Of a stretch of DNA of 41,286 bases, positions 10,982-13,610 are shown one piece after another; positions within the stretch are counted from its first letter, which is position 1; every line of letters begins with the position of its first letter. A program made the translations under genes and the position numbers. A model generated the notes under the pieces. It had not been told where the DNA came from. It saw nothing but the letters and a program-made list of their open reading frames with translations, and did not search any database. Where the stretch lies: IMG/VR virus record IMGVR_UViG_2565956711_000007; one strand, 5' to 3'. The stretch is from a virus (lineage: Duplodnaviria; Heunggongvirae; Uroviricota; Caudoviricetes).

Positions 10982-11206
10982 TCATAATTCACTCTTCAAT
11001 ACTTCCAGCTTACTAATCGCCGAAAGATATCCGCGCTGATAGGGCATCATCATTCCTTCGAGCTTGCCACTTCTTAACTCCTCCCTGAGCAATTGTATTG
11101 CTTGATCAATAACCTCTGCCTTAGCGTCCTTTATGGCTTGCTTTCGGGGCTTTGCTTTCTGCTTTGGCAGATTTCTCAAGCATGATGGAATGTATGTCTG
11201 ATTCAT
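10982..11206 (-). CDS. Hypothetical protein (74 aa), basic N-terminus
   Basis: ATG 11206 with GAGG 6 nt upstream, directly after N stop. Confidence 0.5.
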   Translation of the reverse strand: MNQTYIPSCLRNLPKQKAKPRKQAIKDAKAEVIDQAIQLLREELRSGKLEGMMMPYQRGYLSAISKLEVLKSEL

Positions 11207-11209
11207 CAC

Positions 11210-11593
11210 TTACCTCGCCGTCAGTTGTTTTGATTTCCGGTAGCCTGCCGCGTAAATGGCTACGTTTGGAAGACATACACCAGTTTCTGGTTGCTTATGT
11301 CCAAACTCATTCGCGTACACAATGGCCGCTCGCTCCAGATTGCGTCTGTATTCTTTCTGTTGCCAGATCACGTCCTGTGCCATGAACTTAATTGGCTTAG
11401 CGTCTTCTATGCGCTCAGGCGTTTCGTGAGTACCTTTAGCCTGAATCTGCGCTCTGCTTAGAGTAGGGCGGTGTAATACTTCTGAACTTATTGCTTCTTC
11501 GCGGGCCAGTACGCCGTTAGCTAATGCCTTTGCCTTTAAACGCTCACGACGACGAGAACGTGAATTGCCTTTGAACTGAGTTCTGCGTGTCAT
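11210..11593 (-). CDS. N: Antitermination protein N (P22/phi21-like type)
   Basis: 127 aa; N-terminal arginine-rich motif SRSRRRERLKAKA; AGGAGG 5 nt upstream; preceded by P22-type nutL boxB. Confidence 0.8.
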   Translation of the reverse strand: MTRRTQFKGNSRSRRRERLKAKALANGVLAREEAISSEVLHRPTLSRAQIQAKGTHETPERIEDAKPIKFMAQDVIWQQKEYRRNLERAAIVYANEFGHKQPETGVCLPNVAIYAAGYRKSKQLTAR

Positions 11594-11854
11594 ATAGACC
11601 TCCTGATGAACTTTGGTGGTGTGGTGGCTGGTAGTCTAGCTCCAGCTTGTTGAGTCTCATTCGGAGGGGTATAACCGGCACCCCAGTGATTTTTCCATGC
11701 GACAACGTGCGCGTTATGGCGGCCTTATCGCCCGCGGCTCCCCATCTCGTCCACGCTATTGCTAGCGTTGGGAGCGCTTCACCGCTCAACAGTAGGTAAG
11801 CACTTGCCAGTGACTAGCTGGCTTCACCACACCCCAAAGTTCACTTTGGTTATT

Positions 11855-11869
11855 GCGCTTTGTCAGCGC
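11855..11869 (-). promoter_or_regulatory. nutL boxB hairpin (P22 type)
   Basis: Minus-strand GCGCTGACAAAGCGC, identical to the P22 nutL boxB sequence as I recall it; no canonical boxA found upstream. Confidence 0.7.
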
Positions 11870-11937
11870 CGTAGATTCATATTCGAATCGTTGTATATTC
11901 ACCGCCCTGGTGAGTAATGCGTCCTGCTGATGGCTTA

Positions 11938-12023
11938 AAGATAACTTAGGTTATAGGTGTGGTCAATAACCTAATTTATATTTTATGGTAAATAAGTTAT
12001 AAGTGATGGATAACAAAGGTATT
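11938..12023 (-). promoter_or_regulatory. pL promoter with OL operators
   Basis: Minus strand -35 TTGACC (11961-11966), 17-nt spacer, -10 TATCTT (11938-11943); operator-like ATAAC-N4-GTTAT at 11941-11954, degenerate copies at 11966-11979 and 12010-12023. Confidence 0.55.
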
Positions 12024-12152
12024 TTATTTTTGTAAATGTTGCTGATTGATTGGTGTTTGAGGGCTTGCGTGCGGGGTGAAGGTGTTACCTTTGGCTTGAT
12101 GCTTGTCTATGATGAGGATGGTTGATTGGGTGGTGAACGGCAGGAAAAGAAA

Positions 12153-12178
12153 ACCCGGCGCTGAGGCCGGGTGTTTTT
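12153..12178. terminator. Bidirectional rho-independent terminator ending the cI operon
   Basis: Stem ACCCGGC / GCCGGGT with 6-nt loop, T-runs on both sides; overlaps stop codon of the 98-aa ORF. Confidence 0.7.
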
Positions 12179-12473
12179 AGTCTTTTCTTTTGCTTAGCAT
12201 TTCGTCGATTTCTAAGTCAATACGATATTGATCTATTGCTTTTCTCTCGTTTGGGGTTGGTATTTTATACTGTTCAATTAGATCTGTTGTGTATTTTATT
12301 TCATCTAATGTTATTTTTATATCAGAGAGAATCTCTTTTATATCAATTATATGCTCTTCTTCTTTTGCGCGATTAGAGCTATGTTCAATCATTTGAGATA
12401 GCTTTTTGCTAATGCTTAGCAAAACAAAAAGAATGATGACCAAAACAACAACAAAAACTATCAGAAATTCCAT
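12177..12473 (-). CDS. Hypothetical small membrane protein in the rexAB slot, co-transcribed with cI
   Basis: 98 aa; N-terminal TM helix EFLIVFVVVLVIILFVLLSI then charged helical tail; GGAGGG RBS; 40 nt downstream of cI on same strand; strikingly AT-rich. Confidence 0.7.
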   Translation of the reverse strand: MEFLIVFVVVLVIILFVLLSISKKLSQMIEHSSNRAKEEEHIIDIKEILSDIKITLDEIKYTTDLIEQYKIPTPNERKAIDQYRIDLEIDEMLSKRKD

Positions 12474-12513
12474 TATCCCTCCGCACTTCCGTAAGTCTTC
12501 TTCTGATTATCGG

Positions 12514-13221
12514 TTACCAACTATGAGACGACCAGAATACTCTGCCAATAATCCTTACGGTTTCATGAAATTCATCTCTATCCATTACTTCATCCGGGTA
12601 CTCTTCGCGATTTATTGATCTGATTATCACCGATGTAGGGGTGGCGATTAATGTTTTTACTCGTAACAAATCAGACTGGCAAATAGCGTAGGTTTTACCA
12701 TCTCTGATTGTGGTATCTTGCGTGTTAACACCAACAACATCGCCATCGTGAAGGGTTGGTTCCATGCTTTGCCCTACAACCCTAACTAGCTTGGCTGATC
12801 TTTCAGATACTCCCATCTTTTTCAGATAGTGCTTTCTGAAAACCAAAGAGAACTCCGATGATTCCTCTAGCTCGCAGCTACCGCTTCCAGCTGAAAGCGA
12901 AACGTTAAGAAGAGGCAACGCAACAAACTCGTCATCGTTTCTTTTAATGTCTTCCCATACCACAGCTTTTAAAGATGACTCACGGACATTGGATGGTTCT
13001 TCATGTGCACCATCCCTCATTTCACCAATACCAGAACTAAGCCATTCAGGACGCACTTTTAAAGCATTGGCTAATTCAACCATCTTGCGAGATCCGTTTG
13101 TTTTACCGGACGACATCTTCTGTATGGCTGGCTGAGATATTCCAACCATGTCAGCAAGCTGTGATTGTGATACCCCTGCTGAGCTCATGGCTGCATTTAG
13201 TCTTTCTGCGAATGTTTTCAT
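12514..13221 (-). CDS. cI: CI-type prophage repressor (HTH plus S24 LexA-like autopeptidase domain)
   Basis: 235 aa from ATG 13221 (likely leaderless); HTH QSQLADMVGISQPAIQKM; S24 motif GQSMEPTLHDGDVVGVN; not the lambda cI sequence. Confidence 0.88.
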   Translation of the reverse strand: MKTFAERLNAAMSSAGVSQSQLADMVGISQPAIQKMSSGKTNGSRKMVELANALKVRPEWLSSGIGEMRDGAHEEPSNVRESSLKAVVWEDIKRNDDEFVALPLLNVSLSAGSGSCELEESSEFSLVFRKHYLKKMGVSERSAKLVRVVGQSMEPTLHDGDVVGVNTQDTTIRDGKTYAICQSDLLRVKTLIATPTSVIIRSINREEYPDEVMDRDEFHETVRIIGRVFWSSHSW

Positions 13222-13311
13222 ACCCACAAATCTATAACTACGGTTATCCAAAGTAAAATAACAAAGGTTATTGCTATTTTTTATAACTTGAGTTATCTTT
13301 GGTTATAACTA
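13222..13311. promoter_or_regulatory. OR region: divergent pRM and pR with three operators
   Basis: ATAAC-N4-GTTAT at 13234-13247, 13258-13271, 13283-13296; pR -35 TTGCTA (13271-13276) and -10 TATCTT (13294-13299); pRM -10 TAGATT 7 nt before the cI ATG. Confidence 0.65.
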
Positions 13312-13564: not shown

Positions 13565-13610
13565 CGCTCTTTTCACAATGGACATTCGTCCTACGTCGCT
13601 GACAAAGCGA
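13565..13610 (+). promoter_or_regulatory. nutR (boxA-like CGCTCTTT and boxB hairpin)
   Basis: CGCTCTTT at 13565-13572; boxB TCGCTGACAAAGCGA at 13596-13610 with the same GACAA loop as nutL. Confidence 0.65.

What the first reader, a model, noticed from the sequence alone, without database searches (positions are those of the whole stretch)
11608..11842. Long-range inverted repeat pairing the nutL region with the N ribosome-binding region
Plus-strand GAACTTTGGTGGTGTGGTG (11608-11626), about 10 nt upstream of the N SD on the transcript, is the reverse complement with one bulge of CACCACACCCCAAAGTTC (11825-11842), which lies just 3' of boxB on the transcript. The distal arm can alternatively form a local hairpin (CCAAAG TTCA CTTTGG, 11833-11848). 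This resembles the RNase III-processed leader structure that regulates N translation in lambda.
Basis: partly seen in the sequence, partly recalled or inferred. Interest (0 to 1): 0.45.

Follow-up and report, generated by a model that had tools for sequence, protein, structure and literature searches.

The report
Lambda-type RNase III stem before N
The inverted repeat is real and is this prophage's copy of the well-known phage lambda leader helix that joins the nutL site to the N ribosome-binding site and is cut by RNase III, so it is a conserved but essentially ordinary regulatory element.

Summary
On the leftward (pL) transcript, 11844-11825 pairs with 11626-11606. This gives 20 bp with one bulged A (11617). 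Every core pair has probability >=0.995. The helix has 19 Watson-Crick pairs, against at most 13 in 300 shuffles.

It is not a new structure. Lambda's own N leader carries the same arms (GCUUUGGGGUGUGUG / CACACACC-A-CCAAAGC) at the same place, between nutL boxB and the N Shine-Dalgarno. That is the RNase III-sensitive structure of the lambda literature.

Among 39 distinct arm pairs from lambda, HK544, 933W/HK97, Salmonella and IMG/VR phages, 14 pairs show compensatory changes (covariation 0.29 vs 0.12 shuffled, 0/500). P22-type leaders, examined separately, keep the helix with different inner arms.

The sequence between the arms is replaceable: 18 unrelated cassette families were found. The window combines a 933W-type nutL and N with an HK544-type cassette.

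The likely function is inferred by homology. The helix places the N-nutL complex next to the RBS and hinders ribosome entry. RNase III cleavage would uncouple them. Cleavage itself could not be tested here.

Verdict: new member of a known kind, modest interest. A side finding is a tRNA-like cassette in the same slot in three other phage contigs.

The parts
11938..11966 (-). pL promoter (-35 TTGACC, 17-nt spacer, -10 TATCTT). The transcript start is inferred at A11931 (AUCAGCAGGACGCA, as in lambda).
   Evidence: The promoter scan finds this as the only site in 11100-12300. The start sequence is identical to lambda, HK106 and HK544 leaders. HK106 is annotated with pL +1 at the same base.
11855..11869 (-). 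nutL boxB hairpin GCGCUGACAAAGCGC (P22/933W/H-19B type), the presumed binding site of the N arginine-rich motif.
   Evidence: Exact match, with a second, 2-mismatch copy in nutR at 13596-13610. It forms a hairpin in every fold. HK106 annotates the same sequence as nutL boxB.
11834..11849 (-). Local hairpin CCAAAG-UGAA-CUUUGG. It uses the outer half of the 5' arm and is a predicted co-transcriptional intermediate.
   Evidence: It is in the MFE of every nascent transcript from +100 to +320 and is displaced at +326. Its equilibrium probability in the full leader is about 0. It is present in all nutL types examined.
11825..11844 (-). 5' arm of the long-range helix (GU-GAACUUUGG-GGUGUGGUG). It contains the GGUGUG 'boxC-like' motif downstream of boxB.
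   Evidence: The motif is GGUGUGUG in lambda.
11627..11824 (-). Interior cassette (198 nt, a multibranch fold with no excess stability of its own). It is an exchangeable module 99% identical to that of HK544/HK633.
   Evidence: z = -0.32 alone against -5.41 with the arms. Mosaic table. It belongs to cassette family 3 of 18. No Rfam or tRNA hit.
11606..11626 (-). 3' arm (CACCACACC-A-CCAAAGUUC-AU) with the conserved bulged A at 11617. It ends 1-3 nt before the SD.
   Evidence: The bulge is conserved as A (G in the BP-4795 group) in 39 arm pairs.
11591..11604 (-). N ribosome-binding site: SD AGGAGG (11604-11599) and AUG (11593-11591).
   Evidence: ORF 11210-11593. The computed opening energy of -18..+12 falls from 17.4 to 7.2 kcal/mol if the leader is cut at the inferred site.
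11210..11593 (-). N antiterminator gene (127 aa, H-19B/933W/HK97 type; arginine-rich motif RSRRRER at residues 12-18).
   Evidence: Translation. The first 300 nt are 100% identical to EDL933-Stx (933W). The motif matches that reported for H-19B N in PMC3526286.

Best explanation
The two arms form the closing helix of the N-leader RNA. It is the homologue of lambda's RNase III-sensitive structure between nutL and the N ribosome-binding site.

Shown here:
- The helix is thermodynamically dominant.
- Its sequence is homologous to lambda's.
- It is maintained by compensatory substitutions across lambdoid phages, while the enclosed sequence is freely replaced.

Inferred by homology with lambda (Steege 1987; Kameyama 1991; Wilson 1997, 2002; recalled, not re-read here):
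1. During transcription the 5' arm is first held in the small local hairpin.
2. When the 3' arm emerges about 215 nt later, the long helix forms by strand displacement.
3. The helix brings boxB, with bound N and Nus factors, to within about 15 nt of the Shine-Dalgarno. Its base sits 1-3 nt from the SD.
4. Ribosome entry is therefore hindered, and N can repress its own translation.
5. Host RNase III cuts the helix near the bulged A. Transferring my recalled lambda cut sites (+88/89 and +197/198) gives about 11834|11833 and 11616|11615.
6. Cleavage detaches nutL from the RBS, frees the RBS and raises N synthesis. This ties N level to host RNase III activity.
For: - Structure: pair probabilities >=0.995. 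The helix is in the MFE of 361-nt, 368-nt and 241-nt constructs. z = -5.41 with the arms against -0.32 without them. Helix length 19 against at most 13 in shuffles.
- Homology: lambda has GCUUUGGGGUGUGUG...CACACACC-A-CCAAAGC in the same order between boxB and the SD. Leaders of lambda, 933W, HK106, HK544, BIS08P22, Oslo, 118970_sal4, SI8 and BP-4795 all fold with this helix. So do P22, 1H12, SH2026Stx1 and Cronobacter phage ENT47670.
- Covariation: on 39 distinct arm pairs, 14 of 22 pairs change on both sides. The score is 0.290 against 0.123 shuffled (0/500) and 0.03-0.10 for slid controls. RNAalifold independently predicts the same 16-bp helix with the bulge. Examples: GAUGCGAUG/CAUCGCAUC (epsilon34), GAAAGCG/CGCUUUC (SI8), ACUGGCG/CGCCAGU (P22).
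- RBS: the computed opening energy drops after the inferred cut, more than in lambda.
- Literature available here: N bound at nutL, about 200 nt upstream, represses N translation, and the intervening RNA is highly structured (PMC5725501). RNase III regulates lambda N mRNA, and the binding-only mutant rnc70 does so too (PMC8708148). E. coli RNase III substrates are helices of about 20-22 bp (PMC3867540).
Against: - No experimental data exist for this phage or for any 933W/H-19B-type leader in the searchable library.
- RNase III sites cannot be predicted from sequence. The lambda cut positions I transfer are from memory, because the primary papers were not retrievable.
- The interior is a 198-nt multibranch region, not the simpler interior of lambda.
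- N autoregulation has been shown only for lambda N. H-19B-type N is reported (recalled: Neely and Friedman 2000) to need fewer Nus factors, so the repression complex may differ.
- P22-type leaders carry a G.G mismatch in the outer helix. L220 and L221 have one mismatch in the outer helix. The outer half is therefore not inviolable.
- Sampling caveat: the loci were fetched with the exact 3'-arm 15-mer, so arm invariance in that subset is by construction. The covariation comes from the protein- and BLAST-based samples.
- Method caveat: where several 5' anchors existed, my script chose the one most complementary to the 3' arm. This is a mild bias towards pairing.
Confidence: 0.75

Rival explanations
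1. The arms are conserved only at the DNA level, as short homology patches ('linker' sequences) where lambdoid phages recombine. Their complementarity would then have no RNA function.
For: The mosaic breakpoints fall exactly at the arms. The window is 99-100% 933W-like outside the arms and 99% HK544-like inside. Eighteen cassette families combine freely with different boxB and N types.
Against: Phages whose inner arms differ in sequence keep perfect complementarity. DNA homology patches do not require that. The conserved bulge, the fixed position next to the SD and the known lambda biochemistry also argue for an RNA role. The two ideas are compatible: a functionally constrained helix also acts as a crossover site.
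Confidence: 0.05
2. The 5' arm matters as a linear protein-binding element of nutL (boxC, GGUGUG) for the antitermination complex. Its pairing with the distal arm would be incidental.
For: nut sites are described as boxA, boxB and boxC (PMC2724277). Lambda nutL has GGUGUGUG and lambda nutR has GGUGUAUG downstream of boxB. rrn boxC is UCUGUGUGGG.
Against: P22, SI8/S135 and the epsilon34 group have no GGUGUG at this place, yet they keep a complementary helix. The window's nutR has no such motif. In lambda nutR the motif is itself paired with an adjacent CACACC. For rrn boxC, the helix rather than the sequence is what matters (PMC10250234).
Confidence: 0.07
3. The functionally important structure is the local hairpin (11849-11834). 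It would act as a pause, weak terminator or attenuator just after nutL (possibly lambda's 'tL0'), and the distal arm would serve only to dissolve it.
For: The CAAAG/CUUUG hairpin is present in all nutL types despite different boxB and loop sequences. In L196 and P22-type leaders the apex pair covaries for the local hairpin (CCAAAC/GUUUGG) at the cost of a G.G mismatch in the long helix. It persists in predicted nascent folds until +320. A weak terminator tL0 'accompanying nutL' is mentioned in PMC7315355.
Against: No U-tract follows the hairpin (GGGUGUGG), and the terminator scan does not call it. It is only -4.8 to -6.4 kcal/mol. Its sequence hardly varies, so covariation cannot support it. 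This idea does not explain the strongly covarying inner arms. It is more likely an added feature than a rival.
Confidence: 0.08
4. The arms mimic a tRNA acceptor stem with discriminator A and CCA. The leader would then be processed by tRNA enzymes (RNase P and 3' trimming) rather than by RNase III.
For: The 3' arm reads helix-A-CCA-AAG in nearly all leaders. In three contigs the slot holds a cloverleaf that ARAGORN calls a tRNA, and the Rfam tRNA model scores above threshold on the one contig tested (L167); its acceptor stem is made of the arms. Family 6 cassettes have a canonical T-arm abutting the arm.
Against: The window's cassette gives no tRNA signal. Neither do the ten other leader loci scanned. 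The CCA is base-paired to the 5' leader. L220 and L221 have CCC or CCU instead of CCA. Lambda's site is an established RNase III substrate.
Confidence: 0.03

Closest known systems
Phage lambda N-leader RNase III-sensitive structure (Steege et al. 1987 J Biol Chem 262:17651; Kameyama et al. 1991 Mol Microbiol 5:2953; Wilson et al. 1997 Genes Dev 11:2204 and 2002 EMBO J 21:4154). The citations were seen; the content is recalled.
   Same: Same transcript (pL) and the same order: nutL boxB, small hairpin, long-range helix, SD, N. The outer arm sequence is the same (CUUUGG-GGUGUG / CACACC-A-CCAAAG), with the same bulged A, and the helix base abuts the RBS.
   Different: The N protein and boxB are of the H-19B/933W/P22 specificity class, not lambda's. 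The interior is 198 nt of unrelated sequence, against 84-98 nt in lambda. The helix base is 3 nt from the SD, against 8 nt in lambda, so the predicted RBS occlusion is stronger. There are no experimental data.
E. coli rrn 16S leader-trailer helix containing boxC, the primary RNase III processing stalk (PMC10250234; PMC8632103).
   Same: A nut-like site is followed by a GU-rich boxC strand. That strand pairs with a distant complement to enclose a 'cargo' RNA in an RNase III substrate. The helix matters more than the boxC sequence. Tethering by the antitermination complex is proposed to deliver boxC to its partner.
   Different: The cargo there is 16S rRNA (1.5 kb), and the helix serves ribosome assembly. 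Here the cargo is a short replaceable spacer, and the helix controls translation of the downstream gene. Element order is boxB-boxA-boxC in rrn and boxA-boxB-boxC in phage.
suhB leader: Nus-factor/BoxA-mediated translational repression (Baniulyte et al. 2017, PMC5725501).
   Same: A nut-type element in a 5' leader represses translation of the downstream ORF. The authors draw the parallel with lambda N/nutL and note that the structured spacer could compact the loop.
   Different: There is no long-range helix or RNase III step, and no phage N protein.
Mosaic junctions of lambdoid phage genomes (modular exchange at short conserved sequences; general knowledge, for example HK97/HK022 comparative genomics).
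   Same: The sharp identity breaks coincide with short conserved sequences, here the two arms.
   Different: These junction sequences lie inside a non-coding leader, are mutually complementary, and covary as RNA.

Membership tests
Lambda-type N-leader RNase III-sensitive structure | Lies on the pL transcript between nutL boxB and the N ribosome-binding site | tested here: met
   pL 11966-11938, boxB 11869-11855, helix 11844-11606, SD 11604-11599, N 11593-11210
Lambda-type N-leader RNase III-sensitive structure | Stable long-range helix whose base abuts the N RBS | tested here: met
   20 bp with one bulge; pair probability >=0.995; ends 1-3 nt before the SD; 19 bp against at most 13 in shuffles
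Lambda-type N-leader RNase III-sensitive structure | Sequence homology of the arms with lambda's | tested here: met
   The 5' arm is 16/18 identical and the 3' arm 16/17 identical to lambda, while nutL, interior, RBS and N are 36-64%; side-by-side sequences
Lambda-type N-leader RNase III-sensitive structure | Helix conserved by compensatory change among relatives | tested here: met
   14 pairs with double-sided changes, 0/500 shuffles reach the score, slid controls are low; RNAalifold agrees; P22-type inner arms are fully different yet complementary
Lambda-type N-leader RNase III-sensitive structure | Cleaved by host RNase III in vivo and in vitro | not testable with these tools
   Needs cleavage assays or 5'-end mapping in rnc+ and rnc- hosts
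Lambda-type N-leader RNase III-sensitive structure | Modulates N translation (RBS hindrance; N autorepression relieved by cleavage) | not testable with these tools
   Computed accessibility only: the -18..+12 opening energy is 17.4 kcal/mol in the full leader and 7.2 after the inferred cut
E. coli RNase III substrate (generic) | Roughly two helical turns (about 20-22 bp) of mostly regular dsRNA | tested here: met
   20 bp plus a 1-nt bulge; criterion from PMC3867540
E. coli RNase III substrate (generic) | No antideterminant base pairs in the proximal and distal boxes relative to the scissile bonds | not tested
   The cleavage site is not known independently, so box positions cannot be assigned
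nut-site boxC | GU-rich GGUGUG-type motif shortly downstream of boxB | tested here: met
   GGGGUGUGGUG at 11835-11825, starting 20 nt after boxB ends at 11855. Lambda nutL has GGUGUGUG and lambda nutR has GGUGUAUG. The identification of boxC as this motif is recalled; the existence of boxC is in PMC2724277
tRNA / tRNA-like element (for the window's own cassette) | Cloverleaf detectable by ARAGORN or the Rfam tRNA model | tested here: not met
   ARAGORN finds 0 genes in the window. No tRNA hit at E<=10 in 11000-12600
Intrinsic terminator (for the local hairpin 11849-11834) | GC-rich hairpin followed by a U-tract | tested here: not met
   Not called by the scan. The hairpin is followed by GGGUGUGG
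Any Rfam family | Covariance-model match | tested here: not met
   Nothing credible in the window leader or in 10 homologous leader loci. The lambda N-leader structure is not an Rfam family

The most novel reading that the evidence does not exclude
The two arms are a fixed 'socket', the phage counterpart of the rRNA boxC leader-trailer helix. Unrelated RNA 'cargo' modules are swapped into it by recombination. One recurrent cargo is a cloverleaf tRNA-like RNA whose acceptor stem is built from the arms themselves. Cargoes could be released as discrete stable RNAs with functions of their own. Alternatively, different cargoes could couple N expression to different host RNA-processing pathways: RNase III for most, and RNase P with 3' trimming for the tRNA-like one.
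Probability: 0.12. Interest if true: 0.6.

Novelty: new member of a known kind. Interest (0 to 1): 0.3.

Why it matters
N is the first gene expressed from pL, and its level sets the pace of lytic development. In 933W/H-19B-type Stx phages that includes the cascade leading to toxin expression. If this leader is processed like lambda's, N synthesis in such prophages is tied to host RNase III activity and hence to growth conditions. For genome annotation, the result gives a simple signature of N leaders across lambdoid phages: CUUUGG + N7-9 ... N7-9 + A + CCAAAG, ending just before the SD. It also shows that the region between the arms is an exchangeable module. This explains why BLAST sees these leaders as two short conserved patches around unrelated sequence.

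Tried and rejected
- Rfam scans of the window leader and of 10 homologous leader loci gave no family.
- Primary lambda papers and reviews (PMID 12145215, PMC126142, PMC275398, PMC6311387, PMC4424060, PMC4027172, PMC28323, PMC3545037) are not held. The lambda cut sites and details of autoregulation therefore rest on my recollection, plus secondary statements.
- RNAduplex between the leader halves was useless as a chance statistic, because it allows large loops (observed -80 against shuffled -76 +/- 7). I replaced it with a longest-helix statistic.
- I tested whether the interior is a specially structured RNA. It is not (z = -0.32).
- I tested whether the window's cassette is tRNA-like. It is not.
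- I tested whether the local hairpin is an intrinsic terminator. It has no U-tract and is not called.
- I looked for a boxC-like motif at the window's nutR. There is none.
- The genome-contig scan for the tRNA-like cassette returned only an ordinary Chlamydiota tRNA-Trp.
- Literature searches for RNase III with Stx or 933W N leaders, and for tRNA-like elements in nutL regions, found nothing relevant.

Full report
CONTEXT. The window is a lambdoid prophage.
- On the minus strand there is a pL-type promoter (11966-11938).
- The transcript start AUCAGCAGGACGCA, inferred at 11931, is identical to lambda's.
- A P22/933W-type boxB lies at 11869-11855.
- The 127-aa N gene lies at 11593-11210. Its first 300 nt are 100% identical to the N gene of the EDL933 Stx phage.
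- Its arginine-rich motif RSRRRER (residues 12-18) is that of H-19B N (PMC3526286).
- The whole 431-nt promoter-leader stretch is 100% identical to a prophage of E. coli O19:H7 strain 730V1. Only 6 of 5,426 complete E. coli genomes cover at least 80% of it.

OBSERVATION.
- On the RNA, 11844-11825 pairs with 11626-11606: 20 bp with the single bulged A11617.
- The helix is in the MFE of three different constructs. Every core pair has probability 0.995-1.0.
- A helix of 19 Watson-Crick pairs with one bulge compares with a median of 8 and a maximum of 13 in 300 dinucleotide shuffles.
- The 241-nt arm-to-arm RNA has z = -5.41. The 198-nt interior alone has z = -0.32. The excess stability therefore lies entirely in the arms.

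WHAT IT IS.
- Lambda's own leader (L005) reads: boxB, then UUCAAAGC-AGAAG-GCUUUG, then GGGUGUGUG, then the interior, then CACACACC-A-CCAAAGC, then 8 nt, then AGGAG, then AUG.
- The local hairpin, both arms, the bulged A and the position next to the RBS are therefore homologous to the window's.
- By my recollection of Steege 1987, Kameyama 1991 and Wilson 2002, this is the RNase III-sensitive structure of the lambda N leader.
- Those papers could not be opened. Their existence and gist are confirmed by secondary sources. N bound to nutL, about 200 nt upstream, represses N translation, and the intervening RNA is highly structured (PMC5725501). RNase III, including the binding-only mutant rnc70, regulates N mRNA (PMC8708148).

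COMPARATIVE EVIDENCE.
- I collected leaders in three ways: by N-protein homology in IMG/VR, by the 3'-arm 15-mer, and by BLAST against phage records.
- The leaders of lambda, 933W, HK106, HK544, four Salmonella phages and BP-4795 put the same helix in their MFE. So do P22, 1H12, SH2026Stx1 and a Cronobacter phage.
- Thirty-nine distinct arm pairs were aligned as A1.
- For the 22-pair structure I imposed, 83.9% of cells pair, against 36-44% when the partner is slid. Fourteen pairs show double-sided changes. The covariation score is 0.290 against 0.123 +/- 0.010 in shuffles (0/500).
- RNAalifold independently returns a 16-bp helix with the same bulge, and 8 of its pairs have compensatory changes.
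- The outer half (CUUUGG/CCAAAG) and the bulge are almost invariant.
- The inner half is cassette-specific but always complementary. Examples are GGUGUGGUG/CACCACACC (window), GAUGCGAUG/CAUCGCAUC (epsilon34, 118970_sal4), GGUGAAU/AUUCACC (Oslo, BP-4795), GAAAGCG/CGCUUUC (SI8) and ACUGGCG/CGCCAGU (P22).
- Caveat 1: loci carry the canonical 3' arm by construction.
- Caveat 2: my anchor-picking favoured the most complementary 5' site where several existed.

MOSAIC STRUCTURE.
- Against 933W, the window is 99% identical in nutL, 100% in the 5' arm, the RBS and N, but unalignable in the interior (194 against 98 nt).
- Against HK544, which has a lambda-type nutL and lambda N, the pattern is the reverse. 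The interior is 193/194 identical, while nutL, RBS and N are 57-63%.
- Across 171 leaders the interiors fall into 18 unrelated families of 50-208 nt.
- The window's family occurs with four boxB types and at least three downstream genes.
- The arms are thus both the functional helix and the crossover points. The interior behaves as replaceable filler.

MECHANISM (inferred).
1. MFE folds of nascent transcripts keep the local hairpin from +100 to +320. The inner arms pair by about +312-320. The outer helix displaces the hairpin at +326.
2. In the folded leader, boxB lies about 10 nt from one strand of the helix base and the SD 1-3 nt from the other strand.
3. This would place an N-Nus complex at nutL beside the RBS, as proposed for lambda.
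4. The computed cost of opening -18..+12 is 17.4 kcal/mol in the full leader. It is 7.2 kcal/mol in an RNA starting at the inferred cut. The lambda values are 10.2 and 6.5 kcal/mol.
5. The helix length fits E. coli RNase III substrates (PMC3867540).
6. I recall the lambda cuts as +88/89 and +197/198. These give a 2-nt 3' overhang across the bulge. Transferred to the window, they fall at 11834|11833 and 11616|11615. This step is memory plus homology, not a result.

RELATION TO boxC AND rRNA.
- nut sites are said to comprise boxA, boxB and boxC (PMC2724277).
- The GGUGUG(U/G)UG of the 5' arm is, by my recollection, lambda's boxC.
- In lambda nutR the same motif (GGUGUAUG) pairs with an adjacent CACACC.
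- In rrn operons, boxC (UCUGUGUGGG) sits in the 5' strand of the leader-trailer helix that RNase III cuts. There the helix, not the sequence, is what matters. The antitermination complex is proposed to deliver boxC to its distal partner (PMC10250234; PMC8632103).
- The N leader is the same design with a short, exchangeable cargo.

RIVALS.
- DNA-only homology patches do not explain the covariation.
- A linear boxC protein site does not explain leaders that lack GGUGUG yet keep the helix.
- The local hairpin may have a role of its own. It is universally present. In L196 and P22-type leaders its apex pair is kept (CCAAAC/GUUUGG) at the cost of a G.G mismatch in the long helix. However, it has no U-tract and is weak.
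- A tRNA-mimic reading is unsupported for the window.

SIDE FINDING.
- In three IMG/VR contigs with different nutL and N types (L167, L220, L221), the slot holds a cloverleaf.
- ARAGORN calls it tRNA-Pro(agg) in all three. Rfam's tRNA model scores 34.8 bits on L167, above the threshold of 29.
- Its acceptor stem is formed by the conserved arms, followed by A-CCA, A-CCC or A-CCU. Its anticodon arm is aberrant.
- I found no mention of this in the searchable literature.

VERDICT. The element is the homologue of a long-known lambda regulatory structure in a phage of different N/nut specificity and with a different interior. It is a new member of a known kind and of modest interest (0.3). The exchangeable-cargo architecture and the tRNA-like cargo are the only parts that might surprise a specialist.

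Noticed in passing
L167 369-450 (-); L220 8562-8645 (+); L221 487-568 (+): A cloverleaf tRNA-like module sits in the N-leader slot of three lambdoid contigs with different nutL and N types. ARAGORN calls it tRNA-Pro(agg), and Rfam tRNA scores 34.8 bits (threshold 29) on L167. The conserved arms form its acceptor stem. The anticodon arm is aberrant. In L220 and L221 the outer 3' arm is CCCAAG or CCUAAG, one mismatch against CUUUGG.
   Followed up: partly
L096 and L206 (BIS08P22), just 5' of the 3' arm: Cassette family 6 ends in a canonical T-arm (G[C/A]UGG-UUCGACU-CCA[G/U]C) stacked directly on the arm helix, with a compensatory C-G to A-U change between the two members. The window has GCUGG-AGCUAGACUA-CCAGC at the same place (11646-11627). 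No tRNA-model hit in L206 at E<=10 (L096 was not scanned with Rfam).
   Followed up: partly
L215 (P22), L216, L217, L218, L196: P22-type nutL regions have GUUUGG instead of CUUUGG. The change is compensated in the local hairpin (CCAAAC) but not in the distal arm (CCAAAG), which leaves a G.G mismatch in the long helix. This suggests selection on the local hairpin itself.
   Followed up: partly
L053 (IMGVR_UViG_3300045988_069239): The leader appears tandemly duplicated. N codons 1-4 (AUGACACGCAGA) run straight into the 3' half of a second boxB, followed by a second local hairpin and 5' arm.
   Followed up: no
L109, L189: Leaders that keep the 3' part of a cassette, the 3' arm and lambda N, but have unrelated sequence in place of nutL and the 5' arm. 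These may be deleted or rearranged prophages in which the helix cannot form.
   Followed up: no
window 11874-11889 (-): The dyad GAUUC-GAAUAU-GAAUC lies upstream of boxB and forms a hairpin in all folds. By my recollection this corresponds to the spacer dyad symmetry described for H-19B nut sites (Neely and Friedman 2000).
   Followed up: no
window 11899-11913 (-): A 5'-proximal hairpin UCACC-AGGGC-GGUGA at +19..+33 of the leader. Lambda has CCACC-AUGAA-GGUGA at the equivalent place.
   Followed up: no
window 13565-13610 (+): nutR: boxA-like CGCUCUUUU (13565-13573) and boxB variant UCGCUGACAAAGCGA (13596-13610). No GGUGUG/boxC-like motif follows, unlike lambda nutR.
   Followed up: partly
window 12153-12172 (both strands): A GC-rich hairpin with T-runs on both sides, that is a bidirectional terminator-like site, between the 98-aa ORF (12177-12473, -) and the pL region.
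   Followed up: no
window 11937-12000: Repeated ATAAC(C/T)TAAGTTAT-type half-palindromes (repeat finder I1, I10, D1) overlap pL. These are presumably the oL operators of the 245-aa repressor encoded at 12514-13251 (-).
   Followed up: no
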